This document shows, piece after piece, positions 25,788-44,736 of a stretch of DNA of 44,890 nucleotides (position 1 is the stretch's first letter; every line of letters starts with the position of its first letter). The stretch spans positions 386,707 to 431,596 of the forward strand of contig CAJNUA010000046.1 of NCBI GenBank assembly GCA_905330235.1. The letters run 5' to 3'. Both the position numbers and the translations under genes were made by a program. This stretch comes from Rotaria sp. (taxonomy: Eukaryota). A model generated the notes under the pieces. It worked only from the letters and a program-made list of their open reading frames with translations. It was not told the origin of the DNA and did no database searches.

Positions 25788-28700
25788 CTAAAGAGATTAT
25801 TAGACAAACGATTGAGCAACATAAATATGAGGAATATATCTACTTGATTGTCAGGTCCACTAGTGGCAATAGCTTGAATTGTTTGAGATCCTATAGCAGC
25901 CACATGCTCCTTGAATTCTTCGATTTCAATATTAGTAATTCGTTTCGTTTTTTCAATTTCAAGTTCAGATGTTAATTTATCATGTGCCAATTCGAGTTCA
26001 CGTGTTTGCATCAAGCGATCGAGTTCAGTATCAGATTTAATCTTCCCTGCTTCAGCTCGAAGAGTAGCTATTAGAAAAGATCTCGGTCTTCGACTAAAGA
26101 TTTACAAAAACCAATTTCGAACATACCTTGTTCGACAGCTGCGTCTCCCTCGATTATCGCTGCTTCTGCACGCGACTTAGCTTCAGCATGCGATTGGCCA
26201 ACCAATTCTACAGCTGCCGAACGTGCTTGAAGCACCAACAGCTCCTGACGTTCCTTTTCGGCTAGAAAAATTAAGATTACATATATAGTCTATAGAATAA
26301 TATAGGTTAATGGGTAAAGCTCGAAATCAAATGGTAGACGTGGAGTCATGATATTGGAAATTGATGGTCTACAAAGTGTGACAATCTCAGATACAATTTA
26401 CGTCGAATGATTGATATTATTTTATTAGAGTGCGGAAGAATTATGTAAGCTTTATAGATAGGTTCTGAAAGCGACCATATTGATACTTTTAGATGAACAG
26501 AATAAAAATGAAATTTTGTCTTATCTTTTCAAGTTAACATGTAAACAAAGTCGAAACACTATGCTAATCTCTAATACATATACACAAGAGTGCAAAACAA
26601 TAATAATCGTCTACCTTCAGCTTCATCGGTGATCCTTTGTCGTTCCAGATAACCTTTGGCTTCTTGTTGAATTCGTGAAGCCATATGCCTATTAAAAAAA
26701 AACATGAAAATAGTCGTTTTTTTTCTATCTCATCATTTCTTTTACTTGGCTTGAGCTTCTTGTGAGTTAGTCGTTATCTAAAGTAGAATTTTGACAAAGT
26801 CAGATAAATATTTATCGAAAGAGAATTTAATTACTTCAATAGCTAGTTGAACGCTCTTCTGAAGAGCATCTTGTGTTCTTTGATCGACCGGTTTAACGCT
26901 TTGAATATCGATTGAAGTGAGAACAAGATTATTTTGTGTGAAGACAAGTCGATTATTAATTCGCTTGTTTTCATCAATACCAAAAACGGACGTACGGATA
27001 ATTTTGGCCGAATTTTTATGAAAATCGTCAAATGAAATACCAGCAACAGCACCACGAATTTTTGCTGCGACAGTCTTGCAAAAGTCTCCAACAAAATCAG
27101 GTACTGAAAAGAGTTTAGCTACATCTTTGCTATCATTCTTATCGGCAACCTAGAAATAGAAGGCACACTCTTTCTGTTGCTGATTAAAAAATACGATTTC
27201 TCACTTCGAAATACCAACTATAGGACAACTGGAGTGAGAGTCGAGCATGGTCACTCGATTCAATGGTTACGACATCAGTTGAAAACTCCGGTCCAAGCAA
27301 AAGGCACATAGCACGGATTCTGTTTGGAACCTTCGGCTTATCACCGGATAGGTTAAGAATTGTAAATTGCTCATCAGGACCAAGCATAACAAGTTCAGGC
27401 CCGAAAATGATACGAGCGTTTTTAGATTTATAATCATAAATTTGTACACATGCATTATGTGGTACACGATAAGTGATTACTTTTGATTTGTCTCGAGGTG
27501 GAAGCACAGCGATTACTGCTGATTGGTTTTTAAAGTGGCGAACATCAAGTGCAAGTAATTGTTCGACTTCAGTTGGTAATTCTTTTTCCCAGAGTTCTTC
27601 ATTTTCGGTAAGTAGATAGGTACTACCGATAATTGAACGAATTTTGCCCATCTTGACATTACGTACATATATACCTTCGTTTACATCCAATGGAATAGAT
27701 TTTCGTCGATTTACAACCTCAACTTCGATAGCCGGAATATAATCTCTAGGACCTCGAATCATCCAAAGATCACCTGGATTGTGTATTACATTCTCAAAAG
27801 TTAAGAAATAATTTTCAAAGAAAATAAAAAAATTCTACTAACTTTCTCTTCGCTAAATGCTTCGATACATCGAAGAATAAGACCTTCGTCTTCTTCAAGT
27901 ACATACACATCCTGAATACCGTTGGCAAACTTCTCACCTGGCTGCAGAAAAAAGATCGCTTCACCCTAGTCGAAAACGCCCTCATTAGTGGAATAACATT
28001 AATAATAGTAACAGCCATACTTTAACAAGTTTTTTCTTTCCTAGCTGAGGTTTACCGTTTGAGCCGACTGGATCAATAATGATACAATATTGGAGAGAAT
28101 GAAGTACGGTAACCGGAACAATATCAACCACCTATTAATTATTTTTTAAGTGTTTTAAGTGATAGTAGACAAAGAAGAAGAAAAAACCTCTTCATAAACA
28201 TCGGGTATATATGTTTCAGCATCGTTAGCATATACCAACCATTCTTCACCATGAAGACGTTTACGTTTGAATATATCAACAAATGTTCGTAAAGCACGAA
28301 TGTGAAGAGCTTTCTAAACATGCAGTTATAATGAATAACAACAAATAGTATTTATTTCGTTGGCTCATACTTTGTCGGTTAACACGTAGGCCTTGACAAT
28401 CGAAACAACTTCTTCGTAAGCCGATGGTAAATAAGAACCAACCATTTGAATGAGCCATTCTTCACCTGCTTCACGCTCAATACCGTTTCTGTCAATCATT
28501 TTCTTTTTAGCACGCAGACGAATCGCTTCATTCGGTTTCAAAATATTAGCTTGAATTTCCCTATCAACATGAACTTCTTTGCGTGGGAAATAGGTTCCTA
28601 AAAAAATGAATATGAAAATCAATAACGAAATCTTATTGAGTCTGTTTTATATGTCAGCGTTGCAGTAGTGCATCATTTTCAATTTCTGAACTAACAGTAT

Positions 28701-29259
28701 CGTATCGAACCTGGTCCCTCAAAGAGAAATTCTTCACCAGCGTGAACTTCTTGGCCATTGTCATCAACAAAATCAAGTACAGCACGTAGACGAAGAGCTC
28801 TATTGGGCTCGACTACTTGAAGTGGGCTGACAGCTTTTCTGAGTACTTCACCAGGATAGAGCGGAAATGGATCTTGAGAAAATCGAATTTCAATATCCGA
28901 ATGAAACAATTTGACTTGACCATTCGCATCAATAACAATTTCACTGTCATTGCCGCGTACAACTGGGTTTTCAATAACACAATAGTGACGAGGGCTGTAA
29001 AAATCAAAATGAAACAATCAATAGAATTATAAAGACTACATACGGAATAATTAACATGCGTTCTGGTCCAATTAGAACTTTTTCATGATCTTGTTTAACA
29101 AATGTCTGTGGGCCAACTTCAAGATGAGTAACGTTTGTATTTTGATCGAGTACATGGACATAGTAGAATGGTAGAATTCGGTAAACTAAATAGAAATATC
29201 ATCATAAATACTATTGCGGAGACGAAATACTCACCACCAGTAACTTCCGAACAGGCCAT
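25644..29259 (-). CDS. MVP: Major vault protein paralog 2, gene span (14 coding exons, ~849 aa), convergent with MVP-1
   Basis: Minus-strand translation reads MACSEVTG|[32 protein letters not shown]..., LSYSWYFE|[37 protein letters not shown]..., and ...[33 protein letters not shown]...*. Total coding length is 2550 nt with consistent phases. Confidence 0.85.
25844..26067 (-). CDS. MVP: MVP-2 exon 13
   Basis: [75 protein letters not shown]; donor gtagat. Confidence 0.85.
26127..26261 (-). CDS. MVP: MVP-2 exon 12
   Basis: [45 protein letters not shown] + g; donor gtatgt. Confidence 0.8.
26615..26688 (-). CDS. MVP: MVP-2 exon 11
   Basis: (K)[24 protein letters not shown] + g; acceptor ttaatag; donor gtagac. 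Confidence 0.7.
26746..26777 (-). CDS. MVP: MVP-2 exon 10 (32-nt micro-exon)
   Basis: [10 protein letters not shown] + aa; acceptor ctttag; donor gtaaaa; needed to keep frame between exons 9 and 11. Confidence 0.65.
26835..27149 (-). CDS. MVP: MVP-2 exon 9
   Basis: [57 protein letters not shown]...QKSVQLAIE; donor gtaatt. Confidence 0.9.
27205..27792 (-). CDS. MVP: MVP-2 exon 8 (588 nt)
   Basis: [27 protein letters not shown]...[36 protein letters not shown]...[15 protein letters not shown]; donor gtgaga. Confidence 0.85.
27843..27965 (-). CDS. MVP: MVP-2 exon 7
   Basis: [41 protein letters not shown]; donor gttagt. Confidence 0.8.
28021..28131 (-). CDS. MVP: MVP-2 exon 6
   Basis: [37 protein letters not shown]; donor gtatgg. 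Confidence 0.8.
28188..28313 (-). CDS. MVP: MVP-2 exon 5
   Basis: [42 protein letters not shown]; non-consensus donor gag|gttttt. Confidence 0.7.
28371..28597 (-). CDS. MVP: MVP-2 exon 4
   Basis: [75 protein letters not shown]; donor gtatga. Confidence 0.85.
28711..28994 (-). CDS. MVP: MVP-2 exon 3
   Basis: [95 protein letters not shown]. Confidence 0.85.
29044..29185 (-). CDS. MVP: MVP-2 exon 2
   Basis: Acceptor ctatttag; (V)[47 protein letters not shown]; donor gtatgt; phase 2 (shared with the MVP-1 intron 1 position). Confidence 0.8.
29235..29259 (-). CDS. MVP: MVP-2 exon 1 (ATG 29257-29259)
   Basis: MACSEVTG + g; donor gtgagt. Confidence 0.65.
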
Positions 29260-29379: not shown

Positions 29380-29940
29380 GTAATACGCATGCTACTCGCC
29401 TGATAGATGTTTCCGCGACAGTTGCTCTTCGGACACTTACTCCTTGAACAGTTACTCTTGCGACATTTACTTCCATGAATAGTAGCTCTTTAGAAACACT
29501 TGCTTCCCAACGATATTTAACAGAACCATTACTGATTACAAGAACAAATATAAATGAGTATAAGTGTGGATGGAATACAGGATATGGGTGGGATATGGGC
29601 CTTAGTGTAGGTGTGGGTATGAATTTAGAGAAAATCCACACCCACACCCATCCACCACGCCCAATCTTACACCGATTTATAACTATTTTACCTTTCTCTT
29701 AGCTTATAATAATCTATAATTATTCAAAAGTTATTTGAGAATTTTTAATGCGTCGCTCACGGTTGCAGTACAACTGTCTGGGAGTAAGTGTCGCGTTAGC
29801 AACTGTTCAGAGTCACAATGCCGTTGGAGAGCAACCGCTACTATGCAGCAAGTATTGCGAGAGCAACTCTTCTGGAAACAAGTGTCCCTGGAGAGCAAGC
29901 GCTTGGGGAACAACTGTTATAGGAACATCTGCCAGGAAAG
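29380..29940. repeat. Composite palindromic repeat: 3 tandem ~31-bp units (acagttgctcttcggacacttactccttga...) - (TGGGTG/CACCCA)n core 29566-29670 - inverted copies of the same ~31-bp unit (ggagagcaaccgctactatgcagcaagtattgcgagagcaactc...)
   Basis: The motif gcgacagttgctc on the left and its reverse complement gagcaactgt... on the right flank a GT/CA-rich core; the structure lies 120-680 bp upstream of the MVP-2 ATG (29259, minus strand). Confidence 0.65.
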
Positions 29941-32900: not shown

Positions 32901-34150
32901 AATATTGTCGGCCTAAGTCAATCGATAAATTTGATGACATTCGACATAATGAAGGCTTGGAGACTGACGATCGAAAAATCCAATCTCTAAAGTTCCTAAT
33001 CACTAGTAAAAAGAATTTGTTTTTTTTTCATCTAACATTATTTTTTTTTAGGCCAATCGATCGTTCATCACCATCAGCATGGCGAATTTTCCAATATAAA
33101 CTACTGGTACTATGAATCAGCCAATACAGACAATCATCTCATATCGACTGAAATAAGGTCAGCAGACGAACTATATAGCCGTGCTACTTGGTGCGTCTGC
33201 TGTGTGTATCGGTTTGTCTTCGGTGCTCCAAACTATAGCGAAGCACGAATGAAGTACCGTTCTTTATTCGAATTTCACTGTAATTTGCTGCACTTGTACT
33301 TTTGAGCACTAAAGTGTAAATTTTTCCCCTTGGATCGTTCCATTGGTCTTTAGCAGAGTAAAGGAGCGTAGGGTAGAGTTAGAGTACGTAGAAACGGACG
33401 CATATGAGGACGTGGCATAAACGGGAACTATCAACTAAGCAGACGAGTGTACCACGGTCATCTGTTGATGAATATATTGAAAAAAACCGGACCTTCAAAT
33501 CGGAGCTAGCAGAATTCAGAGTGGGAATATACTACTGAGATCCGTTTTCGTTCTTCTTCCTTCAGAAAAACTTTCGTTGGGTTATTTATTTGCATTATAT
33601 CATGACTATTTCTTTGTCATGACAAAGACAATGCTTTTCTCATAGCATTCGCAAATAAAGACGATGACAGTATTTTCCCCTATTATCGAATTCAAATCTT
33701 TGAAAGCAAAAAAAATGATTGCTACCGCTTTCTTTGACATTTATGAAGGCTTATTGATTCAATAACTCAAAAAATGCACTGTTCTTTTATCATACAAACA
33801 AATAACTCAAAAAAGTTGGCGTAAATTCGCATCACAATTTGTAAATCAATCAATTTTCATCCGTATCTTTCTCTATGCATGGTCATTTTTCTCAATATTT
33901 TTTATAGAAAGATTCTGTCGATCCTTGGACATTTTGACTACTCATTAACTATGAGCTAAATTCGTCATCTTACAAAGTACTCTAGTATCCTATTTTATCC
34001 GCAAATGACTTGAAACATCATAGCACACCCGAAAGCAAAATAGTATAGCATAGTTGTATTCTTAATTGGAAAAACTATAATATTGACACACTCAATATCG
34101 ATTAATAGCTGAAAGATTTTTTCAAACACCTCAACAAGACTGTTGTCAGA

Positions 34151-34255
34151 TCACTCTTTTGCTTTCAGTTCATAATTTCTTCTGAGTAAAGTCTCCACTA
34201 TTTCAATTACATCGCCTCCGACTTCATTAAGATGAAGGTCTATCATGATTAGTGT
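34151..34255 (-). CDS. LRR exon 22 (terminal) TLIMIDLHLNEVGGDVIEIVETLLRRNYELKAKE*
   Basis: Stop TGA at 34151-34153. Confidence 0.8.
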   Translation of the reverse strand, partial: TLIMIDLHLNEVGGDVIEIVETLLRRNYELKAKE

Positions 34256-37156
34256 CTAATGATAGTAAAGATGTGAATCAGTGATAGAAAGAGAGTAAAA
34301 AGACTACCGTGTTTTTACGTAAAATATTAGCGAGATATTCTGCACCTTTGTCCGTGATCTCATTAAGTCGAAGATTCAATGTAGTGAGTGTCTTTTATTT
34401 TTAAGAAAAAAAATTCGAACTAGATGAAGATTGAATGAAGGTCACCGTATTATGTCGTAGTGCATCAGCGAGATGTTCTGCCCCTTTGTCTCCTATTCGA
34501 TGCGATTGAAGATCCAATGAAATGAGTGTCTGTAAATACAAGAAATGTTAGCTGTACGATGTAATGAGAAAGACGAAGTCACTTTGTCGTTTCGAATTTT
34601 GATTGCTGCTCCAACAGCTGCACAATATCCACTCTGATTATGGCTCAGGTCTAATGTCATGAGTGTCTGTATAAATGAGAATATGGATGTGAAAACGGAC
34701 GAAAACAAAAGTCAGTGTTACAGTATTATTTTGTAATGCATTGGCGAGATGTTGGGCACCTTTGTCTCCTATTTCGTTGAATCGAAGATCGAGCGTGGTG
34801 AGTGTCTGCATAGTGAAAAGTGCTTGATCGTAAGAATCACCACAACAGAAAAAGATTCACTGTATTGTTCTGCAAAGCATCACCCAGATGTTGCGCTCCT
34901 TTATTTCCTATTTGATTCCCTCCCAAAGCATCACCTAGTATCAGAGTGGTCAGTGCCTATATGTACAAGATGAGATACGTATAAGAGAGATGATATGAGT
35001 GAAGATCACCGTGTTATTTCTTAAGGCATCAGAGAGATACTGGGTTCCTTTGTCTCCGATTTGATTGTTCCAGAGAATCAATGTGCTAAGCGTCTGTATT
35101 GTGAGGAAAAGAATCATTTTACGGCCAATGAATGGAAAGTGTTACTGTATTATTTCGCAAAGCATTGGCAAGATATTGTGCTCCTTTGTGTTGAATTTTA
35201 TTGTTCCAGAGATTCAGTGTCTTCAGTGTCTGTGAAGACAAGAACATCAAAATAAGAGAGAACTGGTATACTGATAGATACCATGTTATTACGTAAAGCG
35301 TCAGCAAGATGTTGTGTTCCTTTATCTCCGACTTGATTATTCCACAGATCCAACACTGTCAGTGTCTACGTAGAGATGAAAAGCAATATGAGAAATATGA
35401 GGCGGCAAGGACAAAATTACATTATCATTATAAATTTTTACAGCAGCTCCAACAGCTACACAAAATCCACTTCTATTGCGACTAAGTTCTAATGTTGTGA
35501 GTGTCTGTGTTTCAAACCGATGACGAATATGAGATACATTAACAACGTATAACAGTTACTGTATTATTTCGTAGGGCATCAGCAAGCCGCTGTGCTCCGT
35601 TGTTTCCCACATAATTCAATTGAAGATCCAATGTAGTGAGCGTCTGTATACACAAAGCAAAAGATGAACACAAGAAGGATGAAAAGAGAACGAAGGTAAC
35701 TGTATTATTTCGTAATGTCTCAGCAAAATGTCGTGCTCCTTTGTCCCCGATTTGGTTGTTACCGAGAATTAGCGTAGTGAGTGTCTTTATACAGGAGAAG
35801 ATGAGCTGGGAAAAGTAGTAAAGAGAAAACTTCGCTGACTGTATTATATTTTAAAGCATCAGCTAGATGTTGTGCTCCTTTGTCTTCAATATGATTGTTC
35901 CAGAGATTCAGTGCCGTTAGTGCCTGTTCAGATGAGAATATAAAATCGAGAACGACTAAATAGAACGAAAGTCACCTTGTTTTCTCTTAAAGTATCAGCG
36001 AGATATTGCACCCCTACGTCTCCGAGTTGATTATTCCAGAGATTTAGCGTTCTAAGTGTCTGCATGTAGATGGAAACTAATATGAAAACCATGAAGAAAG
36101 AATTAGTAAATCACTTTGTCGTTTTGGATCTTGGCACATGCTCCAACACCTAAACAAAATCCATTGCCTTTATCACTCAACTCCAGTGTAGTAAGGGTCT
36201 GTGTCAATGACAAGATATGTATCAAACAGAGTGAAAAGAGAGACAAATCCTCACTGTGTTGTTTCGTAGTGTGTTAATGAAATATTGAGCACCTTTGTCT
36301 CCTATCTCGTTGAATCGAAGATCCAATTTAGTAAGTGTCTGTTGTTTTTAGAAAGAAAAAGAATTCGAACTACATTAGGATAGAATGAAGGTCACCGTAT
36401 TATGTCGTAGTGCATCAGCGAGATATTCTGCACCTTTGTCTCCTATTCGATGCGATTGAAGATCCAACGAAATGAGTGTCTGTAAAAAGAAGAAATGTTA
36501 GCTGTATGGTGTGATGAGAAAGACAAAGTCACTTTGTCGTTTCGAATTTTGATTGCTGCTCCAACAGATGCACAATATCCGCTCTGATTATGGCTCAGAT
36601 CTAATGTAATGAGCGTCTGTACAAATGAGAATATGGGTATGAAAAAGGATTAAAAAAAGCTCAGGATCACAGTATTATTTTGTAATGCATTGGCGAAATG
36701 TTGGGCACCTTTGTCTCCTATTTCGTTGAATCGAAGATCGAGCGTAATGAGTGCCTGTGTTTTAAGAAAGTAAAGAATATGAACCAGATAACAAAAGAGT
36801 AAAGATTACTGTATTATTTCGTAAAGCATCAGCAAGATATTGTGCACCTCTATCTCTGATTTGATTGTATTGTAGATACAATGTGGTGACAGTCTGTGGT
36901 AGGACAAGAAAATTAATATAGAAAGATGAAGAGAGCATTTAGATCACCGTATTATTTCGTAAGACTTGAGCAATACTTTGTATTTCTATATCACCAATAT
37001 GATTGGATTGAAAATCCACCATGGTCAGTGTCTGTGTGTGGAAGAGAAGGGGAATATGAAATCGACAATGAGAAAGAGAATCACTGTATTATTTTGTAAG
37101 AAACCAGCGAGGTCTTGCCCTTTTTTGTGACCGATTCGATTCGATTGGAGATCCAT
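34151..37156 (-). CDS. Ribonuclease-inhibitor-type leucine-rich-repeat protein (NLR-C-terminal-like LRR domain), 22 coding exons, ~622 aa. Exons: 37085-37156, 36948-37031, 36810-36893, 36671-36754, 36533-36616, 36396-36479, 36255-36338, 36115-36198, 35976-36059, 35840-35923, 35701-35784, 35560-35643, 35421-35504, 35282-35365, 35146-35229, 35010-35093, 34861-34956, 34722-34805, 34583-34666, 34446-34529, 34308-34391, 34151-34255
   Basis: Each exon is bounded by ag|aca ctc ... aat aca|gtga and encodes exactly one 28-aa repeat with the consensus TLTTLDLxxNxIGDKGAQYLADALRNNT (the RI-like LxxLxLxxNxIgdxGaxxLaxaLxxN). The introns between them are 50-66 nt. The last exon ends ...EVGGDVIEIVETLLRRNYELKAKE*. 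The first ATG at 37154-37156 lies inside a degenerate repeat that is itself preceded by a strong polypyrimidine/AG acceptor, so the true 5' end may lie further upstream. Confidence 0.85.
34308..34391 (-). CDS. LRR exon 21 TLTTLNLRLNEITDKGAEYLANILRKNT
   Basis: 84 nt, phase 0/0. Confidence 0.8.
34446..34529 (-). CDS. LRR exon 20 TLISLDLQSHRIGDKGAEHLADALRHNT
   Basis: 84 nt, phase 0/0. Confidence 0.8.
34583..34666 (-). CDS. LRR exon 19 TLMTLDLSHNQSGYCAAVGAAIKIRNDK (variant repeat)
   Basis: 84 nt, phase 0/0. Confidence 0.8.
34722..34805 (-). CDS. LRR exon 18 TLTTLDLRFNEIGDKGAQHLANALQNNT
   Basis: 84 nt, phase 0/0. Confidence 0.8.
34861..34956 (-). CDS. LRR exon 17 ALTTLILGDALGGNQIGNKGAQHLGDALQNNT (96-nt, 32-aa repeat)
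   Basis: The only exon with a 4-aa insertion. Confidence 0.75.
35010..35093 (-). CDS. LRR exon 16 TLSTLILWNNQIGDKGTQYLSDALRNNT
   Basis: 84 nt, phase 0/0. Confidence 0.8.
35146..35229 (-). CDS. LRR exon 15 TLKTLNLWNNKIQHKGAQYLANALRNNT
   Basis: 84 nt; agrees with the ORF-track frame 35119..35307. Confidence 0.85.
35282..35365 (-). CDS. LRR exon 14 TLTVLDLWNNQVGDKGTQHLADALRNNM
   Basis: 84 nt, phase 0/0. Confidence 0.8.
35421..35504 (-). CDS. LRR exon 13 TLTTLELSRNRSGFCVAVGAAVKIYNDN (variant repeat)
   Basis: 84 nt, phase 0/0. Confidence 0.8.
35560..35643 (-). CDS. LRR exon 12 TLTTLDLQLNYVGNNGAQRLADALRNNT
   Basis: 84 nt, phase 0/0. Confidence 0.75.
35701..35784 (-). CDS. LRR exon 11 TLTTLILGNNQIGDKGARHFAETLRNNT
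   Basis: 84 nt; donor gttacc (weak). Confidence 0.75.
35840..35923 (-). CDS. LRR exon 10 ALTALNLWNNHIEDKGAQHLADALKYNT
   Basis: 84 nt, phase 0/0. Confidence 0.8.
35976..36059 (-). CDS. LRR exon 9 TLRTLNLWNNQLGDVGVQYLADTLRENK
   Basis: 84 nt, phase 0/0. Confidence 0.8.
36115..36198 (-). CDS. LRR exon 8 TLTTLELSDKGNGFCLGVGACAKIQNDK (variant repeat)
   Basis: 84 nt, phase 0/0. Confidence 0.8.
36255..36338 (-). CDS. LRR exon 7 TLTKLDLRFNEIGDKGAQYFINTLRNNT
   Basis: 84 nt, phase 0/0. Confidence 0.8.
36396..36479 (-). CDS. LRR exon 6 TLISLDLQSHRIGDKGAEYLADALRHNT
   Basis: 84 nt; near-copy of exon 20. Confidence 0.8.
36533..36616 (-). CDS. LRR exon 5 TLITLDLSHNQSGYCASVGAAIKIRNDK (Cys-containing variant repeat)
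   Basis: 84 nt; near-copy of exon 19. Confidence 0.8.
36671..36754 (-). CDS. LRR exon 4 ALITLDLRFNEIGDKGAQHFANALQNNT
   Basis: 84 nt, phase 0/0; near-copy of exon 18. Confidence 0.8.
36810..36893 (-). CDS. LRR exon 3 TVTTLYLQYNQIRDRGAQYLADALRNNT
   Basis: 84 nt, phase 0/0. Confidence 0.8.
36948..37031 (-). CDS. LRR exon 2 TLTMVDFQSNHIGDIEIQSIAQVLRNNT
   Basis: 84 nt, phase 0/0, ag..gt. Confidence 0.8.
37085..37156 (-). CDS. LRR gene exon 1 (provisional start) MDLQSNRIGHKKGQDLAGFLQNNT
   Basis: ATG preceded by an in-frame TAG that doubles as a possible acceptor AG. Confidence 0.6.
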
Positions 37157-38880
37157 TATGGCGTGTATCTATTTACGGGCGAAAGCGAAGAAAATGGAAG
37201 AAGTTAAAAATAAATAACAGGCAGCTTGTTATTTGATAAGATTTCGAAAAGACCTTGTTTCACTAGGGAGTGACCATTGTTGCATATTTCTAACATTTAT
37301 GTAGGGGCTCAATATGATTTGTGAGAGAAACTGAAATCAAATTTATCTGTCAAATTGATTGGAATATGAGTCTAGTTTTTCGCATTAATTTTGGTTTTTC
37401 TATATTTGTTCAGTACACTTCATGTTAAAACGCTCCGGCTACTCTCATATGAAAGAGAACTTCTTACCGCTTCAGATGAGGAAAAGGACTTTTTAAATTT
37501 GTGTTTCAGTCCATGTTTGAAACTCAATGAACCATAAAGCTGCAAAACACTTAGGCAAAGTTTTCTAGAAAACTCACGATTGTTCTGGTATTAAACATCA
37601 AATATGCAATCGCTTTTCGTTATCTGAACGAGGATACATCTATCTATTCGAATAAAAAACCTCGCTATTCACTAGAAGAAACTATATCGAAAAACGGATT
37701 ATTTGGATTTGAACAATTTAGTTAAAAAGAAAGTTTTACATAGATGCACGAATACACATGCAATTTGTACTTTAGTGAATTCATATACTTTTATCCAACA
37801 TGCTTGTACTATCATGTGCAAGGTCAAAGAACCTAGAACGAGTGTGAACATGTATGTATGGGCCTGGATGCAAATGGAACCAATATGCAAACCAACATCC
37901 GCCTACACTCTTGCCTTACTTTTCCGATTAATTGTATATGAATAACCGTTGTATATTAATAAGAATGTGTTTATTTTTAGAGGTTTTCGATAGAATGGCC
38001 GGCATTTTTGCTCTTGGCGAAGTGATTCTATAAGTCTGAATAACATATATATTTCGTTGATTACAGGCTGTCATTATATTAGAATGATCAGTTTCAAAAT
38101 ATTGGAACAATTCGATCAATTAGTGTATGATGATGACCATTTTCCCATACAAAATAAATTTATTGTGTCATTGTTCTTTCGTTATTTTATTCCAAATTTT
38201 TGTAAAAGTCTGCACAACGAATAAGTGTTCGCGCGAACAACTATCCTACACCCCTATATGTTAACCTCAAAAAGAGTTTCTTTTCTTAGAAAAATCGATT
38301 CTTTTCTTGGAGGACACGGGACGGTCTGAAACCTATGTTACTTCAATTTTGAGACAATTGTTATGCTTGCAAAATAATTTCCATGATGGACGAAAAAACA
38401 TCTTTCTATTCTTCATGTTTATGAAGAACAAACAATTTGTGAGAGAAAACAGTCCTTACCTGTCGACAGCTCGAAAAGTGGCAAAATAAAATCGTGCTTG
38501 CTTCATCTCAATGCAATCTTATGTATACACAACAGGTGGGAAACAGGCTTTCGTTCGTTCGTACGCGAAGTATTTTGTTTCTGCTGACGCAGCTTTACGT
38601 CAACATGGAAGAAACCATCACGACGGGAACAATCCAGAAGCCAAAATAATAAGGTTTTTTTCTAATTAGATTGTTCTGTAGTTGTGCAGTGTCAAGATCT
38701 TGACACTGAAAAGATGAGGTTCTGGACAAACTTCTTATTCATTTTTGGAGGGCATGGTAAGTTCCGCTTTCCAGGAAATTCAAAAATGGCTACACCTCAA
38801 GTGCAGGAGATTGCAACAAGCAGTATTAATGTGAGAATGTCTGGAGATAATTTTCATATATAAAGGCAAACTTTATATTA

Positions 38881-38985
38881 TGGGTTGGATTGGGTTGGGT
38901 TTGGTTGGAATGGGTTGGGTTGGATTCGGTTGGGTTGGGTTGGGTTGGGTTGGGTTGGGCCGGAATAGGTTGGGTTCGGTTGGGA
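38881..38985. repeat. (TTGGG)n-like pentanucleotide array (tgggt/tggat/ttggt units)
   Basis: tgggttgggttgggttgggttgggttgggc... Confidence 0.8.
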
Positions 38986-39259
38986 AATTCATTTTCGCTT
39001 ACAAGTAATTATAGATAATATGTACATTTATTGAGGTTGCCATAGGGCAAACTTAAGTTCGGAATTCAATTTTAGCTGACACCCATAAATTGCCTGCCAG
39101 CTTCTGCAAGTAGTTGCTGCCTGACATTTGGTCATCCAAGACGCTACCAACAGCTATTAATCAAAATCTAGACGCACCGAGCACAACGCCCCCATGCAAA
39201 CTGGAACCCATCATCGCACTCAGATCCACAAGCCATATCACACCAACACCGTCAACTTC

Positions 39260-39525
39260 ACCCACACACAAATCCCACACATACACCGACACACAAATCC
39301 CACACATACACCCACACACAAATCCCACACATACACCCACACACAAAGCCCACACATACACCCACACACAAATCCCACACATACACCCACACACCGGCCC
39401 ATACATCAACACCCACATACCGACCCATACATCAACACCCACACACCGACCCATACATCAACACCCACATACCGACCCATACATCAACACCCACACACCG
39501 ACCCATACATCAACACCCACACCCT
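39260..39525. repeat. Two adjacent minisatellites: 24-bp unit cacacaaatcccacacatacaccc (x4) followed by a ~28-bp unit acaccgacccatacatcaacacccacat (x4)
   Basis: Read directly; generates the spurious His/Thr/Pro-rich ORFs 39114..39694. Confidence 0.8.
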
Positions 39526-39918
39526 CGAGAGTCCTTCAGTGCTACCCACACTAAGATATGTGGTGTCTGAGTGTTCTTTCTCAGAACTTGATTTAAACAC
39601 CGTTTGTGTTATGCGCTATTTGCTAGATATTGTTAATCGCTGGTGGTCCGTTGTACTGTTTTGTGATCCATGTTGGTCCCTGGTATCTTATTAATAAGAA
39701 AAAAGGATAAACATAATTATAGTCACTTGTAGTTCACGGTTACTTTTTCGATTGTTTCGGATTATTTTGTAATTCATATCCGTCATCCAATGTCCACACT
39801 CACACCCATACCATAATGAAGCTTTTGAAAACAGTGTGTAATAACATAAATTTTCTGACCCAATCTAATCCACTCCCGATGAATATAGATATATATTTAC
39901 AAATAAAAATGAATTTCT

Positions 39919-39943
39919 CAACCCAACCCAATCCAATCCCAAC
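39919..39943. repeat. Short (CAACCC/CAATCC) block, inverted relative to the (TTGGG)n array at 38881
   Basis: aacccaacccaatccaatcccaac. Confidence 0.5.
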
Positions 39944-40169
39944 TTAGACTTCAACTTCATTTCTGTATGTTTTTCAATTAGACGAGTCTTCCCTGATTAT
40001 CCTTAAAAGCATTAGATTAAATTTCCATGAAATTTCCCCTATAGTCACTTTATTTGAATTTGCTGGAAAGCGGAATTTACCATCGCATGCATTTTTGTGA
40101 TCTCTTTGAAAGTACGGTTGATAAGTGAAAACTGAAGTAAATCTAGATGGTAACACAAACGTTGCTATC

Positions 40170-40535
40170 CAGACAGATGCTCCCGCGACAGTTGCTCTCC
40201 ATCGACACAGGTATGAGTGTTGGTGTGAGTTTCGATGCAGGTGTGGCTGTGGGTCTCAGTGTACGTGCGAATGCAATTGTGCGCGTTAGTGTGAAAGTGG
40301 GTGCGGGTGTGGATGTAGGCATGGATGAAGAGATGACGGGCATTCATACCCACAGCCATAGCCTCCCCAATATCCGCACACACCCACACTGGTCTCTTGA
40401 ACTTGTGGGTGTGAGTCGGTGTGCGGGAAGATGTGGCTGTGGATGTGAATGTTCATTGCTTCTTCATCTATCTACACCCACACCCGTGTCGCTGAGAAAC
40501 AACTGTCGCAGAAGCAACTGTCTGCGGCGCATCTT
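40170..40535. repeat. Second member of the inverted-flank GT/CA element family: ccgcgacagttgctctcc - (TGGGTG)n / (CACCCA) core - gagaaacaactgtcgcagaagcaactgtctgcggcg
   Basis: Same flanking motif (gcgacagttg and its reverse complement) as 29380-29940. Confidence 0.6.
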
Positions 40536-41831
40536 TCATCGAATAGAACTAGCTTTTCATTTTTTCCAAAATTGGATTTAGAAAACACGTCTGGTGATTT
40601 ACGTGGTTTTGATGTCACCAAATTTTCTTTTCATTATATAACCATGACAATCAGTATTGAGCCTAAATATTTTCTACTAATTTATGTTATAATCTATGAC
40701 AAGTCTTTTTTCCTTATCTATAGTCTTCCTCAGGTATTGTCAGTAAATTGTTTAATCTTCGTTCCATTTGATTTTGTTATGGACTAATAGAGCTGGGTCG
40801 GTTGATCAGAAATATTACATTTTTTTCGAAATCATTTCAGAAAGAAGGAAGATTCGAAGCTCTTCTTTTTGTAGTCCAATTTGAAATCGAATTCTTCTCT
40901 GCTTTTGAGTTCATAATTGAATGTCGGACTACTATATACATTTTGAAAGACATTATTCTTCGTTATGTTAGTATCATTGTCGAAATTCATAGTTAAATAA
41001 ATGTGGAAACCTCGGATTTAGATCCGAGAGTTATGTGTACTTCAAAAAGTGAATTAGACAGATGAGTCATCCTAGAATGTGTGGACATCAAAATTATCCT
41101 GGCAAATCTTTCCTATAAACACTTGACTTCTATTGGCTATTGCTCACCCAATATGACTTGGGGGCGAATACAGCTCAGATTCGAACTCGTCGTCTTGATT
41201 TACCTTAAGAAAGTCGTTTTTTTCTATCAGTTGATTTATATTGGTTACCCCTCAACCAACAGGATTTCGAGGTAAGTGGAGTACAGATTCGAGTTCTCCA
41301 GTCCAGAAAACCTCAAAGTATCATCTCTGTGATCAGAAGACTGAGCTCTAATTGTGGATCAATTAGACTGTGGACGAAAACAGAACCAATTTCCGTTTAG
41401 TTATCTTTGTAATCGTTGAGTTAATCTTCTTGTTTCTTTATGTTTTATATGGGCGTGTAAAGCCGACCTGATACCCCAAGATATATTTGCTGATATAGCT
41501 TCAACTATTTATCGGAAAAATAGGCTTTTTTTACTAGTTGTACTTTGCATATAGTACTACTCATCGGACACTATTTGAGGTTTATATTACTTAGAATGAG
41601 AGCTGATGAGTACGTCCTTATGATTATTATGCTACATGTGCTTCATATCGTATTTATTACCATCTCGTTCTCAGTGTATATCTCGTTCCTGATAAGGTTT
41701 TATCCATTCTCTCGTGTGTTTACATTCTAGTCACACCACATTTCTCCTAACTTTGATTTTTTTTCTTTCTCTGTCTTTCATTTTACTGAATGCACTCTCA
41801 CACAATAGCAAACGCTCACTAACTTCGTATT

Positions 41832-42075
41832 ATGTTCTCTCCACAACTTGAATGGAGTTGTTCTCGATGTCGATCTACCATGTTTGATCGCCGGAAGTAT
41901 TGTACCGATTGTCATTCTATGTTAAGTTGGACATGTATTGGTTCGAAAAAATCTGGTTTGTACACAAATTATTATCATCGTCGTGACAATTGTATTTATT
42001 GTACACCAGAACTCGAAGAAGAAAAACAACGGAATATGAAGGAAAAGCAACAACAGTTTCGAACTTTGGATGACA
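41832..42075 (+). CDS. Harbinger-like transposase exon 1 (Cys/His-rich N-terminus)
   Basis: ATG at 41832; CSRCRSTMFDRRKYCTDCHSMLSWTCIGSKKSGLYTNYYHRRDNCIYCTPELEEE...; donor a|gtaagt at 42076; phase 1. Confidence 0.6.
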
Positions 42076-42132
42076 GTAAGTAATATTACTTTTCTCAGTT
42101 TACACATGCACTTCTGGTTCCGTTGTTTTTAG

Positions 42133-43028
42133 AACAACATCCGTGGTTAGAATGGGGACGTAGCAATGAATCTTGCCTACAACATACCGGGCATGACGTT
42201 GAACAAGTACAACAACTATATTCTATGTGTGAACAAGCACTTATAAACTACTGCTCTCACCGGAGCGAACAACATTTAGACAGTACTATGACACCATATT
42301 TATCTCCTATGAATTTGCTGTTAGTTACATTATGGTACTTAAAACACTACCATTCTGAACGCTATATTGCTACAGAAGCGAATTTGACGCAAAAGGGAGT
42401 GAATTATTTCTTATCATCGATTCTGGATATTTTACATTCCTGTGTATATCCGGAGTTAGTTTCACTACCTGTTGATCTAGCGAGCAGAAGAACACCACAT
42501 GGACCTGAACGACAACATAAACTAATCGTTGATTCGACTTTTATTGCAATACCTGAACCTTATGATTCAGAAGAACGTAAAGCATATTATCATGCAAAAA
42601 GTCCAACAAATTATGCATTAAAAGTTCAAATAGCTTGCAATTTTCTTCATCGAATTGTTCATGTATCCAAATGCTATCATGGAAGTGTACATGACATTAC
42701 AATTCTAAGAGATTCAAGTCTATTAGAACACGTAAACGACTCTGTACAAATTATTGCAGACAAAGGATACATTGGTGAAGAAAATGTAGTTACTCCAAGA
42801 AAAAAACCTCATTGACGTGAATTAACAGATGAAGATAAAGATTTTAATCGTGATATTAATAGTGCAAGAGCAGCTATTGAAAATATTAACCAGCGTCTTA
42901 AAAGTTATGCTATTCTTGATGATGTTTATAGAGGAGCTATCGATAACTTCCATAAAGCAACACAAATTGTACAAGTCGTTTCTGCTCTGTGTAATTTGAA
43001 CTTAAATAAACATCCTATTGGTAGATAA
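42133..43028 (+). pseudogene. Harbinger-like transposase exon 2 (DDE_Tnp_4 core) interrupted by a single in-frame TGA at 42813-42815
   Basis: Acceptor ttttag at 42132, with phase completing aaa. The core reads ...KLIVDSTFIAIPEPYDSEERKAYYHAKSPTNYALKVQIACNFLHRIVHVSKCYHGSVHDITILRDSSLLEHVNDSVQIIADKGYIGEENVVTPRKKPH*RELTDEDKDFNRDINSARAAIENINQRLKSYAILDDVYRG...IGR*. It contains the HARBI1/PIF signature (D...NxKxxHSxxVQ..C..., PGSxHD, xDxGY, then LTxEDxxFNRxIxxxRxxIExxxxRLK) and continues in the same frame after the stop. Confidence 0.7.
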
Positions 43029-43654
43029 AAACAACGATAAGCTGTATTTGTTCATTTACTAGTTGAAAAGGAAACTTTGCTACTGATGTTTCGTATTGAT
43101 TTAAAATTCTTAGTAGCATACAGTGTACGTTAATAAATACGATATGAAGCACATGTAGCATAATAATCATAAGGACGTACTCATCAGCTCTCATTCTAAG
43201 TAATATAAACCTCAAATAGTGTCCGATGAGTAGTACTATATGTAAGGTACAACTAGTAAAAAAATCATATTTTTCCGATAAACAGTTGAAGCTATATCAG
43301 CAAATATATCTTGGGGTATCACGTCGCCTTCTCACGCCCATATACCATTTTGTAGCTCGTGAAATTCTCTGTCGAATGGTATATAATAGTTGGAGTTTTA
43401 TTTGATTATGATAGTAAAAGCTTTTTACGAAAGTGAGAATAGGTCGATTTTCCTATAGGAAGCCATAGGGAAAAATTACTATTTTTGCAATAACTCAGGA
43501 ACGGCTCGGCCAGTCATGCTCATCTTCGAACTCGACCGAGATATTGTTAAGACTGAACTGTGTAGAAAATTTCATCGCAATCGAACTCTCCTTTCAAAAG
43601 TTATCGTGTAAACGGCTGGACGGTCGGCCGGACGGACTCACTGACCGATTCTAG

Positions 43655-43680
43655 AGTGTACTCACTTTTTGAGTACACAA
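43655..43680. repeat. Perfect 9-bp-stem palindrome gtgtactca-cttttt-tgagtacac
   Basis: agagtgtactcactttttgagtacacaaaaag. Confidence 0.6.
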
Positions 43681-43683
43681 AAA

Positions 43684-43915
43684 GATTTCCTTGGCCGAAA
43701 AAATCGAGTTCGAAATTTTGAAAATCTGACTTCAGATTCGGATTCCCCGACTCTGATTTATTTTCGTCAACCTTTATACAACATCATTACTTTCTCAAAA
43801 AATATTTCCTTCACCGGAAAAATTCAACTGAAAATATTGAAGAACCTACTTCAGATTCGGATTCCTCGACTCTGAATTACCTTCGGTCAAACTTTATAAT
43901 GTTCTTTAATCCCAC
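43684..43915. repeat. Two tandem ~118-bp units
   Basis: ...cttcagattcggattccccgactctgatttattttcgtcaacctttataca... matches ...cttcagattcggattcctcgactctgaattaccttcggtcaaactttataat... Confidence 0.65.
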
Positions 43916-44716: not shown

Positions 44717-44736
44717 TCGGGATTACCCTGGGTTCT

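What the first reader, a model, noticed from the sequence alone, without database searches (positions are those of the whole stretch)
34151..37156. LRR gene built as one ribonuclease-inhibitor-type repeat per exon (21 x 84 nt, all phase 0-0), with periodic Cys-containing variant repeats and a recent 3-exon internal duplication
On the minus strand, 22 consecutive exons each encode exactly one 28-aa RI-like LRR (TLTTLDLxxNxIGDKGAQYLADALRNNT). They are separated by 50-66-nt introns with stereotyped borders (ag|acactc ... aataca|gtgac). This is a textbook symmetric-exon module array that can expand or contract by unequal crossing over without disturbing the reading frame.

Two further layers of structure are visible. 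Every 3rd to 6th exon is a distinct variant repeat lacking the IGDKGA loop and carrying a conserved cysteine (TL.TL.LS.N.SG(Y/F)C..VGAA.KI.ND(K/N)); these are exons 5, 8, 13 and 19. The block of exons 4-5-6 plus its introns (~36396-36780) is ~95% identical at the nucleotide level to exons 18-19-20 plus their introns (~34420-34830). That identity indicates a very recent intragenic segmental duplication or gene conversion.

No NACHT or other N-terminal domain was found in the window. The provisional ATG (37156) sits inside a degenerate repeat preceded by a strong polypyrimidine-AG acceptor, so the gene may continue upstream. It could be the LRR sensor arm of an NLR-type innate-immunity protein.
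Basis: seen in the sequence. Interest (0 to 1): 0.7.

Follow-up and report, generated by a model that had tools for sequence, protein, structure and literature searches.

The report
Rotifer LRR gene, one repeat per exon
This is a real, apparently intact bdelloid-rotifer gene made of 22 small exons, nearly all encoding one ribonuclease-inhibitor-type leucine-rich repeat; it belongs to a known, greatly expanded rotifer gene family and shows no sign of being part of an NLR immune receptor.

Summary
On the minus strand, 37168-34151, there are 22 consecutive phase-0 exons: 20 of 84 nt, one of 96 nt and a 105-nt terminal exon. The 21 GT-AG introns are 52-57 nt long. The spliced protein matches Pfam LRR_6 at E=7.6e-83. 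Exons 5, 8, 13 and 19 are a distinct Cys-containing repeat type.

Exons 4-6 and 18-20 are 95% identical. Their introns are only 79-89% identical (dS 0.11, dN/dS 0.29). The copy event is therefore not very recent, and the exons are under constraint.

The closest relatives are Adineta and Rotaria (bdelloid rotifer) proteins. Four paralogues examined (one LRR-only; the others with ART, F-box or U-box/kinase N-termini) have the same 84-nt phase-0 exon plan. The Cys-variant repeat was found only in bdelloid proteins.

Vertebrate NLRC3 also has one repeat per 84-nt exon, but its intron lies elsewhere, in phase 2 inside the beta-strand.

No NACHT or other N-terminal domain lies in the 7.7 kb upstream, and none of the source-named rotifer relatives among the top 120 hits carries NACHT. 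The most likely reading is an LRR-only binding protein, possibly spliced-leader trans-spliced at exon 1. A 5'-truncated copy is the main rival. It is a new member of a known kind and of modest interest.

The parts
34151..37168 (-). Whole LRR gene as modelled. It has 22 exons and 21 introns and a 1881-nt spliced ORF. Translation from the ATG at 37156 gives 622 aa.
   Evidence: Pfam LRR_6 E=7.6e-83; exon-profile nhmmer hits fall only here
37169..37220 (-). Polypyrimidine tract plus AG acceptor directly upstream of exon 1. The acceptor TAG is also an in-frame stop. It is a candidate spliced-leader trans-splice acceptor, or the relic of a lost upstream intron.
   Evidence: Sequence read. Spliced-leader trans-splicing is reported on more than 50% of bdelloid mRNAs (PMC1925144). 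Its use at this site is an inference.
37085..37168 (-). Exon 1, a degenerate LRR (IHAIMDLQSNRIGHKKGQDLAGFLQNNT). The first in-frame ATG is at 37156-37154, in the context gccataATGg.
   Evidence: E=4e-16
36948..37031 (-). Exon 2, 84 nt, a degenerate canonical LRR.
36810..36893 (-). Exon 3, 84 nt, canonical LRR.
36671..36754 (-). Exon 4, 84 nt, canonical LRR of the 'RFNEIGDKGAQ' type. It marks the start of duplicated block A.
36533..36616 (-). Exon 5, 84 nt, Cys-variant LRR (TLITLDLSHNQSGYCASVGAAIKIRNDK).
36396..36479 (-). Exon 6, 84 nt, canonical LRR. It is the last exon of duplicated block A.
36255..36338 (-). Exon 7, 84 nt, canonical LRR of the RFNEIG type.
36115..36198 (-). Exon 8, 84 nt, Cys-variant LRR (TLTTLELSDKGNGFCLGVGACAKIQNDK).
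35976..36059 (-). Exon 9, 84 nt, canonical LRR of the 'LWNN' type.
35840..35923 (-). Exon 10, 84 nt, canonical LRR of the 'LWNN' type.
35701..35784 (-). Exon 11, 84 nt, canonical LRR.
35560..35643 (-). Exon 12, 84 nt, canonical LRR.
35421..35504 (-). Exon 13, 84 nt, Cys-variant LRR (TLTTLELSRNRSGFCVAVGAAVKIYNDN).
35282..35365 (-). Exon 14, 84 nt, canonical LRR of the 'LWNN' type.
35146..35229 (-). Exon 15, 84 nt, canonical LRR of the 'LWNN' type.
35010..35093 (-). Exon 16, 84 nt, canonical LRR of the 'LWNN' type.
34861..34956 (-). Exon 17, 96 nt (32 aa). It is a canonical LRR with a 12-nt in-frame insertion, GGTGATGCTTTG, copied from nt 73-84 of the same exon.
34722..34805 (-). Exon 18, 84 nt, 95% identical to exon 4. 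It marks the start of duplicated block B.
34583..34666 (-). Exon 19, 84 nt, Cys-variant LRR, 94% identical to exon 5.
34446..34529 (-). Exon 20, 84 nt, 96% identical to exon 6.
34308..34391 (-). Exon 21, 84 nt, canonical LRR, 74% identical to exon 7.
34151..34255 (-). Exon 22, the terminal half-repeat cap (TLIMIDLHLNEVGGDVIEIVETLLRRNYELKAKE) plus the TGA stop at 34153-34151.
   Evidence: Paralogues end with comparable short caps.
36339..36754 (-). Copied block A: exon 4 to the end of intron 6.
   Evidence: Alignment A1
34392..34805 (-). Copied block B: exon 18 to the end of intron 20. Against block A the exons are 240/252 identical and the introns 79-89% identical.

Best explanation
This is a member of the large bdelloid-rotifer expansion of ribonuclease-inhibitor-type (LRR_6) leucine-rich-repeat genes.

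**Gene plan.** In this family every 28-residue repeat is its own 84-nt phase-0 exon. The roughly 55-nt intron falls exactly at the repeat boundary (..NNT|TLT..), in the loop between the helix of one repeat and the beta-strand of the next.

**This copy.** It encodes only the LRR solenoid, about 21.5 repeats, or 622 aa from the ATG at 37156. It has no effector domain. It most likely acts as a stand-alone protein-binding horseshoe: a binder, regulator or decoy that works through its concave beta-sheet face, where the most variable positions (3, 4, 6, 8, 9, 11) lie.

**5' end (inferred).** The 5' end is most simply explained by spliced-leader trans-splicing onto the acceptor at 37168/37169.

**Array evolution.** The array evolves by in-frame exon-unit copying, through unequal recombination or ectopic gene conversion. 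Exons 4-6 versus 18-20 are one such event, followed by purifying selection.

**Variant repeats.** Four repeats are a bdelloid-specific variant (consensus TLxxLxLxxNPGxYCxxVxAAIxIxNDK). It keeps the strand-helix unit but replaces the IGDxGA loop and shifts the helix's hydrophobic register.

**Shown versus inferred.** Shown here: gene structure, family membership, lineage restriction of the variant within the sequences sampled, and constraint on the exons. Inferred: expression, trans-splicing, binding function and partner.
For: **Structure and family.**
- Exon/intron structure and intact ORF.
- LRR_6 at E=7.6e-83.
- The best homologues are Adineta and Rotaria proteins.
- A neighbouring MVP gene is most similar to bdelloid and metagenome rotifer fragments (81-82%).

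**The same plan in paralogues.** The identical 84-nt phase-0 exon plan, with the intron at NNx|TLT, is seen in:
- A. steineri, LRR-only (L001);
- A. ricciae, ART-LRR (L004);
- R. socialis, F-box-LRR (L005);
- R. magnacalcarata, U-box/kinase-LRR (L007).

**LRR-only reading.**
- There are no further LRR exons and no N-terminal domain anywhere in the window.
- An LRR-only paralogue model exists (P0001).
- All 42 splice-site dinucleotides are intact.

**Constraint.** Between the copied blocks the exons differ at 12/252 positions and the introns at 22/160 (p=0.0016), with dN/dS 0.29.

**Binding face.** The highest per-position variability is at LRR positions 3, 4, 6, 8, 9 and 11.

**Variant repeat.**
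- Cys15 is invariant and Val18 nearly so across 20 copies.
- The variant occurs only in bdelloid proteins: 11 of 120 hits plus one of 136 representatives.
- The AF2 model of paralogue P0003 keeps strand and helix at the same positions in 3 of 4 variant repeats.

**Trans-splicing background.** Spliced-leader trans-splicing is common in bdelloids (PMC1925144).
Against: - No transcript data exist, so neither expression nor the 5' end is shown.
- Exon 1 is a degenerate repeat that looks like a former internal exon.
- In the three domain-bearing paralogues examined, coding exons lie 44 nt to about 1.2 kb upstream of the first LRR exon, whereas here the upstream 7.7 kb holds minisatellites and a transposon. 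That fits loss of the 5' part.
- The P0001 'LRR-only' model comes from automatic annotation and has suspiciously long gaps.
- The species' own proteome is not in the databases, so no orthologue could confirm the gene model.
Its confidence in variant repeats is lower, and one of the four is disordered.
Confidence: 0.6

Rival explanations
1. It is a 5'-truncated gene fragment. On this reading, an F-box-, RING-, ART- or kinase-LRR family member lost its N-terminal effector exon through a rearrangement or transposon-associated break. What remains is an LRR array that is either not expressed or expressed only by accident.
For: - Exon 1 is a degenerate repeat with an internal-type acceptor.
- Domain-bearing paralogues have their N-terminal exons close upstream.
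- Here the upstream 7.7 kb holds only minisatellites and a Harbinger-type DDE_Tnp_4 element with 214-nt terminal inverted repeats.
- No N-terminal homology is found.
Against: - All 22 exons are open and all 21 introns keep GT..AG.
- The copied exons show dN/dS 0.29 and are significantly better conserved than their introns. This constraint may, however, predate a recent truncation.
- A good-context ATG follows directly after an in-frame stop.
- LRR-only family members are annotated elsewhere.
Confidence: 0.3
2. It is the LRR sensor arm of an NLR (NACHT-LRR) innate-immunity receptor whose NACHT exon lies outside the window.
For: - The RI-type LRRs are 36-39% identical to vertebrate NLRC3 and 40-42% identical to coral NLRC3-like LRR domains.
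- Vertebrate NLRC3 also has one LRR per 84-nt exon.
- The exon 1 acceptor allows an upstream exon.
Against: - There is no NACHT, or any homologue N-terminus, in the 7.7 kb upstream or elsewhere in the window.
- Introns of this gene and its four examined relatives are mostly about 55 nt (the longest gap in an annotated model is about 1.2 kb), so an intron longer than 7.7 kb would be exceptional.
- None of the source-named rotifer relatives in the top 120 carries NACHT. The NACHT-bearing hits with a readable origin are coral or vertebrate, and the one unnamed metagenome hit examined is an uninterrupted ORF.
- The intron position differs from the one conserved in vertebrate NLRs (PMC6642158).
Confidence: 0.04
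3. The internal copy, or the array as a whole, is an assembly artefact caused by collapsed, expanded or mis-joined repeats.
For: Tandem repeat arrays are prone to mis-assembly. Bdelloid genomes also contain diverged homologous copies that assemblers can mix (general knowledge).
Against: - The two blocks differ at 5% of exon and 11-21% of intron positions, including indels. They are not duplicated reads of one sequence.
- They are separated by 11 exons that are each distinct (52-81% pairwise identity among the canonical ones), and their flanks are unrelated.
- Frame, splice sites and intron lengths are uniform across all junctions.
- The same architecture occurs in four independently assembled genomes.
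Confidence: 0.03

Closest known systems
Bdelloid-rotifer RI-like LRR multigene family. Examples are Adineta/Rotaria 'RNI-like', F-box-LRR, ART-LRR, RING/B-box-LRR and U-box-kinase-LRR proteins. LRR expansions in A. vaga are noted in PMC3846280.
   Same: - Best sequence matches are 39-53% identical.
- The 28-aa LRR_6 repeats are identical in type.
- The 84-nt phase-0 exon per repeat, the intron position and the roughly 55-nt introns are the same.
- The same Cys-variant repeat is encoded as its own exon.
- There is a short terminal cap exon.
   Different: - This copy has no N-terminal effector domain within 7.7 kb.
- No orthologue above about 50% identity is in the databases.
- Its variant repeats read NQSG(Y/F)C rather than the commoner NPGSYC.
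Vertebrate NLRC3/NOD-type NLR LRR domains, which show strict exonic modularity of RI-type LRRs (Hoss et al. 2019, PMC6642158).
   Same: - They have RI-type 28-aa repeats.
- There is one repeat per 84-nt exon with symmetric phase, so exon gain, loss or skipping keeps the frame (tiger NLRC3).
- LRR identity to this gene is 36-39%.
   Different: - The NLRC3 intron is phase 2, inside the beta-strand codon (LxxL|x|L). The rotifer intron is phase 0 at the repeat boundary, about 17 nt away.
- NLRC3 introns are 0.3-2.7 kb against about 55 nt here.
- NLRC3 has NACHT; this gene does not.
- NLRC3 has no Cys-variant repeat.
Mammalian ribonuclease inhibitor RNH1.
   Same: - It is an LRR-only RI-type horseshoe with two alternating repeat types, one of them Cys-containing.
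- It is among the best solved-structure matches (3tsr E=4.8e-35).
- It is built by exon duplication (general knowledge: Haigis et al. 2002, not read here).
   Different: - By analogy with NLRP3, whose 171-nt exons encode a 28 + 29-aa repeat pair (PMC6642158), and from the author's recollection, RNH1 exons hold two repeats; this was not checked here.
- Here there is one 28-aa repeat per exon.
- Variant repeats are irregularly spaced (every 3-6 repeats) and have a different motif.
Ectocarpus LRR-ROCO / NB-ARC-TPR 'exon shuffling' receptors (Zambounis et al. 2012, PMC3341825).
   Same: There is one repeat per phase-0 exon of constant length, and the arrays are diversified by exon duplication and shuffling.
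   Different: - Those are 72-nt exons encoding 24-aa LRRs, a different length class from the 28-aa RI-type repeats here.
- They are fused to ROC-COR.
- Brown algae are an unrelated lineage, so the resemblance is convergent.
Mortierellaceae 'RNI-like' proteins and the metagenome NACHT-LRR protein P0002.
   Same: Sequence similarity of the canonical repeats is equally high, at 37-44%.
   Different: - The LRR domain is encoded in one large exon or ORF, with no per-repeat introns.
- There is no Cys-variant repeat.

Membership tests
RI-type (ribonuclease-inhibitor-like) LRR proteins, Pfam LRR_6 | Tandem 28-29-aa repeats matching LxxLxLxx(N/C)xLxxxgoxxLxxoLxxxxx, scoring above the Pfam LRR_6 gathering threshold. 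| tested here: met
   LRR_6 scores 266.6 bits against a cut-off of 23.4, E=7.6e-83. Repeat logo. The best PDB matches are RI-like proteins and RNH1.
RI-type (ribonuclease-inhibitor-like) LRR proteins, Pfam LRR_6 | A curved beta-strand/alpha-helix solenoid fold. | tested here: inconclusive
   The spliced protein itself could not be submitted. The AF2 model of paralogue P0003 gives regular strand(4-6)/helix(14-26) units at pLDDT 63-95 across the LRR part, apart from one disordered variant repeat.
Bdelloid RI-LRR multigene family | Closest relatives are bdelloid (Adineta/Rotaria) proteins. | tested here: met
   The flanking MVP gene points to a bdelloid genome.
Bdelloid RI-LRR multigene family | One LRR per 84-nt phase-0 exon, with the intron at NNx|TLx and introns of about 45-67 nt. 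| tested here: met
   Window. Paralogues L001, L004, L005 and L007.
Bdelloid RI-LRR multigene family | Interspersed Cys-variant repeat (..N(P/x)Gx(Y/F)CxxVxAAIxIxNDK) encoded as its own exon. | tested here: met
   Exons 5, 8, 13 and 19. Alignment A5 shows C15 invariant. The variant is present in 12 bdelloid proteins and in none of about 240 non-bdelloid or unnamed hits.
NLR (NACHT/NB-ARC + LRR) receptors | A NACHT or NB-ARC NTPase domain N-terminal to the LRRs in the same gene. | tested here: not met
   No match to any homologue's N-terminus appears anywhere in the window. No sizeable minus-strand ORF lies upstream. Domains beyond the window edge, more than 7.7 kb away, are not testable.
NLR (NACHT/NB-ARC + LRR) receptors | Exon border at the conserved position inside the LRR beta-strand (PMC6642158). 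| tested here: not met
   The rotifer border is phase 0 at the repeat boundary. Tiger NLRC3 is phase 2 within the beta-strand codon.
F-box/LRR (SCF substrate receptor) or RING/U-box-LRR E3 adaptors | An F-box, RING, B-box or U-box domain upstream of the LRRs. | tested here: not met
   tblastn with F-box, RING/B-box and U-box-bearing rotifer paralogues found nothing. Pfam found nothing in the upstream ORFs.
Symmetric-exon (modular) repeat arrays capable of in-frame exon gain, loss or skipping | Consecutive exons of equal length, a multiple of 3, all in the same phase. | tested here: met
   There are 20 exons of 84 nt and one of 96 nt, all phase 0-0. One three-exon copy event is documented.
Symmetric-exon (modular) repeat arrays capable of in-frame exon gain, loss or skipping | Actual alternative splicing, or exon-number polymorphism between individuals. 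| not testable with these tools
   No transcript or population data are available.

The most novel reading that the evidence does not exclude
Bdelloid rotifers may have built a NACHT-less recognition repertoire on their own version of the exon-per-repeat LRR array, which arose independently of the vertebrate NLR one given its different intron position and phase.

- The array is attached to interchangeable effectors (F-box, RING/B-box, U-box-kinase, ART, caspase) or left bare as LRR-only regulators like this gene.
- Specificity would be diversified by in-frame exon copying, gene conversion and possibly exon skipping.
- The bdelloid-only Cys-variant repeat, with its invariant Cys15, would serve as a functional punctuation module, for example a hinge or curvature change, a redox or acylation site, or a docking site, rather than a neutral variant.
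Probability: 0.12. Interest if true: 0.6.

Novelty: new member of a known kind. Interest (0 to 1): 0.3.

Why it matters
On its own this is one more copy from a known lineage-specific LRR expansion, and exon-per-repeat LRR arrays are already described in vertebrate NLRs and brown algae. Three points have some wider value.

1. The rotifer arrays place their introns at a different site and phase from vertebrate NLRs. Modular LRR exon arrays have therefore probably been assembled more than once in animals.

2. A second repeat type with an invariant cysteine appears confined to bdelloids. It travels with the LRR module across genes that have unrelated N-terminal domains. This gives a handle for tracing how the family was built and a concrete residue to mutate.

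3. In the rotifer relatives sampled, these LRRs are joined to ubiquitin-ligase, ADP-ribosyltransferase, kinase and caspase domains rather than to NACHT. That bears on how an asexual animal with heavy pathogen pressure organises intracellular recognition.

Tried and rejected
1. **Looking for an N-terminal domain.** None of these searches found one:
   - six-frame ORF lists for 37-44.9 kb;
   - three-frame reading of 37169-39300;
   - tblastn of 120 full-length homologues against the window with the array masked (the best hit, E=0.048, is noise);
   - Pfam on the two 63-aa upstream ORFs;
   - an nhmmer exon profile to look for decayed LRR exons.

No orthologous locus was obtained.

Paralogue P0003 was modelled instead. 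Its ART domain was poorly predicted and is not used.

4. **Profile search with the Cys-variant repeat.** A 28-aa profile was too short. Its distribution was judged instead by pattern-scanning 120 + 136 hit sequences and one cluster look-up.

5. **Coral NLRC3-like loci** (P0008, P0022), A. vaga P0005 and a RING/B-box paralogue (P0031) were not on record. The intron position in non-vertebrate NLRs therefore remains untested.

6. **Species identification** through the neighbouring MVP gene gave only 81-82% best identity. The source is a bdelloid, but the species is unresolved.

7. **Assembly artefact** was rejected for the duplication, because the copies are diverged and have distinct flanks.

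Full report
**1. What is there.** I read the minus strand of 33800-37600. I then screened for AG|ORF|GT units and assembled them into a gene model.
- The model has 22 consecutive exons from 37168 to 34151: 20 of 84 nt, exon 17 of 96 nt, and a terminal exon of 105 nt ending in TGA (34153-34151).
- Every exon starts and ends on a codon boundary (phase 0-0).
- The 21 introns are 52-57 nt long and all are GT..AG. The borders are stereotyped, (c/t/a)ag|AC(A/G)CT at the acceptor and AAYACR|gtra at the donor.
- The joined ORF is 1881 nt.
- Each 84-nt exon encodes one 28-residue repeat, T-L-T-T-L-D-L-x-x-N-x-I-G-D-K-G-A-Q-Y-L-A-D-A-L-R-N-N-T.
- The spliced protein matches Pfam LRR_6 at 266.6 bits, E=7.6e-83.
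- A DNA profile of the exons finds all 22 units (E=4e-24 to 5e-05) and nothing else in the window. The array is sharply bounded and far beyond chance.
- The extra 12 nt of exon 17 (GGTGATGCTTTG, nt 22-33) are an exact copy of nt 73-84 of the same exon.

**2. Two repeat types.**
- Exons 5, 8, 13 and 19 encode TLxTLxLSxNxSG(Y/F)CxxVGAAxKIxND(K/N).
- At the DNA level they are 65-74% identical to each other (94% for the 5/19 pair) but only 33-51% identical to canonical exons.
- The variant is not peculiar to this gene. It recurs in 11 of the 120 best homologues, and all 11 are named Adineta or Rotaria proteins.
- It also recurs in one of 136 further cluster representatives found with P0001. That protein is a Rotaria F-box protein.
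- None of the fungal, coral or vertebrate hits, nor any unnamed metagenome hit, has it.
- In an alignment of 20 copies, Cys15 is invariant, and T1, L5, L7, N10 and V18 are at least 90% conserved.
- A profile search with the motif alone failed for lack of length. 'Bdelloid-only' therefore rests on about 256 sampled relatives, not on an exhaustive scan.
- In an AlphaFold2 model of the A. ricciae paralogue P0003, the LRR part has pLDDT mostly 63-95. Three of its four variant repeats keep a strand at repeat positions 4-6 and a helix at 14-26, like canonical repeats, though with lower confidence. The fourth is disordered.
- The variant keeps G13, A21, N26 and the beta-strand, but replaces the IGDxGA loop and shifts the helix's hydrophobic positions (C15, V18, I22, I24 instead of I12, A17, L20, L24). 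This is read directly from the sequences.

**3. The internal copy.**
- Exon pairs 4/18, 5/19 and 6/20 are 95, 94 and 96% identical (240/252). Introns 4/18, 5/19 and 6/20 are 79, 89 and 82% identical.
- Intron pair 3/17 is at background level (57% against a median of 60%). Exon pair 7/21 is 74% identical and intron pair 7/21 is 59%.
- The high-identity tract therefore runs from the start of exon 4/18 to about the end of intron 6/20: 36754-36339 against 34805-34392, roughly 415 nt.
- A Nei-Gojobori count gives dS 0.108, dN 0.032 and dN/dS 0.29. Intron substitutions are 22/160. Exons are significantly better conserved than introns (Fisher p=0.0016, or 6e-5 if indel columns are counted).
- Two conclusions follow. 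The event is not 'very recent' and is not an assembly duplication. The exons have been under purifying selection since it happened.
- The two copies are separated by 11 unrelated exons and the tract is short with sharp edges. Ectopic gene conversion between pre-existing repeats of the same types is therefore at least as likely as a segmental duplication. The data do not decide between them.
- Older traces of the same unit exist. An 'RFNEIG'-type exon precedes the variant in three of four cases (exons 4-5, 7-8, 18-19).

**4. Organism and family.**
- The best protein matches are unnamed or 'RNI-like' proteins of Adineta steineri, A. ricciae, A. vaga, Rotaria socialis, R. magnacalcarata and R. 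sordida, at 39-53% identity. Mortierellaceae RNI-like proteins, coral NLRC3-like proteins, vertebrate NLRC3 and metagenome NACHT-LRR proteins follow.
- A fragment of the neighbouring major-vault-protein gene is 81-82% identical to metagenome fragments and a Rotaria fragment, 70-78% to Adineta and 62% to Brachionus.
- The window is therefore from a bdelloid rotifer whose own proteome is not in the database.
- Expansion of LRR and other repeat-protein families in bdelloids is already on record (PMC3846280).

**5. The exon plan is family-wide and differs from that of vertebrate NLRs.** I mapped five homologues onto their genomic loci. Four rotifer genes from four species have the same plan: 84-nt phase-0 exons, one LRR each, intron between ..NNx and TLx.., and introns mostly of 44-67 nt. 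Where Cys-variant repeats occur, each is usually its own exon. The four genes are:
- the LRR-only model P0001 (L001);
- the ART-LRR protein P0003 (L004);
- the F-box-LRR protein P0006 (L005);
- the U-box/kinase-LRR protein P0021 (L007).

Tiger NLRC3 (L002) also has one LRR per 84-nt exon. There, each exon carries 1 + 81 + 2 nt, so the intron is phase 2 and splits the codon of the residue between L5 and L7 of the beta-strand. This agrees with the report that the exon border in human NLRs always lies at the same place within the beta-sheet (PMC6642158).

The rotifer intron lies about 17 nt away, in phase 0, in the helix-to-strand loop. A Mortierella homologue has its LRR region in one large exon (L003), and a metagenome NACHT-LRR is one uninterrupted ORF (L006). 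The one-repeat-per-exon design in rotifers is thus most simply a separate amplification of a differently cut founder exon. This is an inference. Intron positions in cnidarian NLRC3-like genes could not be obtained.

**6. The 5' end and the NLR idea.**
- Exon 1 (IHAIMDLQSNRIGHKKGQDLAGFLQNNT) is a degenerate repeat in the same phase as the others. A long pyrimidine tract and a TAG precede it, and that TAG is both the acceptor and an in-frame stop.
- The first ATG (37156) has an A at -3 and a G at +4.
- Upstream, 37169-44890 contains no minus-strand ORF longer than about 97 aa, and the longest lie within simple repeats. It contains minisatellites at 38881-38984, 39259-39522 and 40161-40207.
- It also contains a PIF/Harbinger-type element: a DDE_Tnp_4 ORF at 42123-42815 (E=2.4e-15) between 214-nt, 96%-matching inverted repeats at 41446-41659 and 43131-43344.
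- tblastn with all 120 homologues found nothing outside the array.
- Among the rotifer relatives named by their source, the N-terminal domains are F-box, RING/B-box, U-box plus kinase, ART or caspase, or there is none. NACHT appears only in coral, vertebrate and unnamed metagenome hits. The NLR reading is therefore not supported.
- Two readings remain.
  - (a) It is a genuine LRR-only gene. Its mRNA either starts in the former intron or, as in more than half of bdelloid mRNAs, receives the spliced leader at this acceptor (PMC1925144). This is an inference.
  - (b) It is a 5'-truncated copy.
- The intact ORF, the 42 intact splice-site dinucleotides, dN/dS of 0.29 and a natural-looking C-terminal cap exon favour (a). 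The degenerate first repeats and the repeat- and transposon-filled upstream region keep (b) alive.

**7. How it most likely works.**
- As in all LRR solenoids, the conserved L/N positions form the core, and the x positions of LxxLxLxxNx line the concave sheet.
- Among the 16 canonical repeats here, the highest entropies are at positions 3, 4, 6, 8, 9 and 11 (1.6-2.4 bits), against at most 0.9 bits at the scaffold positions 2, 5, 7, 10, 12, 24 and 27. That is the usual signature of a binding surface.
- The best solved-structure relatives are LRR-only binders or NLR LRR domains: an RI-like axonemal protein (9y6s, E=2.9e-45), RNH1, LRRC34, NOD2 and NLRPs.
- I therefore propose a cytosolic LRR-only binder or regulator. 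No signal peptide or transmembrane segment stands out in the sequence, though none was searched for.
- The gene plan lets the array grow, shrink, convert or skip units without breaking the frame. The partner and the biological role are unknown.

**8. Verdict.** The 'modular symmetric-exon LRR array' reading is right, while the 'NLR arm' and 'very recent duplication' readings are not supported. It is a new member of a known kind. Two modestly new side-findings came out of it: the bdelloid-restricted Cys-variant repeat, and the non-homologous intron position relative to vertebrate NLRs.

Noticed in passing
window 20124-23414 (+) and 25748-29017 (-): Two major-vault-protein genes lie tail to tail. 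ORFs on both strands match Vault_3, Vault_4 and MVP_shoulder. CA/CCCAC-rich minisatellites lie near the outer (5') end of each gene (19828-19998 and 29415-29490).
   Followed up: partly
window 41446-43344: A PIF/Harbinger-type DNA transposon. It has 214-nt terminal inverted repeats (96% complementary) at 41446-41659 and 43131-43344. These enclose a zinc-ribbon ORF (41832-42083) and a DDE_Tnp_4 ORF (42123-42815, E=2.4e-15) that appears to be cut short.
   Followed up: partly
window 14105-15130 (-) and 16030-16899 (-): Two long uninterrupted ORFs: a 3-hydroxyacyl-CoA dehydrogenase (341 aa) and a short-chain dehydrogenase (289 aa). The LRR gene in the same window is broken by ~55-nt introns (as are its paralogues in other rotifer genomes), so the lack of introns here makes them candidates for horizontally acquired genes, as is common in bdelloids.
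   Followed up: no
window 38881-38984, 39259-39522, 40161-40207, 44081-44176, 44624-44716 (also 19828-19998 and 29415-29490): Related C/A-rich or G/T-rich minisatellites (TGGGT, CACCCACACAC.., CACACC, GGAATGGATG) recur in intergenic stretches and give a strong local GC skew (-0.43 at 39-40 kb). Their origin and role are unknown.
   Followed up: no
window 34861-34956 (exon 17): The only exon that is not 84 nt owes its extra 12 nt to an exact intra-exon copy of GGTGATGCTTTG (nt 22-33 = nt 73-84). This inserts 'GDAL' into the strand-to-helix loop and keeps the frame.
   Followed up: yes
L001 6001-13757 (A. steineri, P0001): In this paralogue a two-exon unit, one canonical repeat plus one Cys-variant repeat, recurs seven times. 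The units are separated by 328-1165-nt gaps in the annotated model, and several borders in that model are non-canonical. The public gene model probably skips exons or merges copies.
   Followed up: partly
L006 301-3471 (TARA metagenome, P0002): A 1056-aa NACHT-LRR protein encoded as one uninterrupted ORF is the second-best hit to the rotifer LRRs, at 39% identity. Canonical RI-type repeats of this kind are shared at similar identity by bacteria-like metagenome sequences, Mortierellaceae fungi, corals and vertebrates.
   Followed up: no
window 12118-12927 (+): An ORF with a partial TGF-beta-like domain at its C-terminus (E=5.9e-09). It is probably one exon of a TGF-beta family ligand gene.
   Followed up: no
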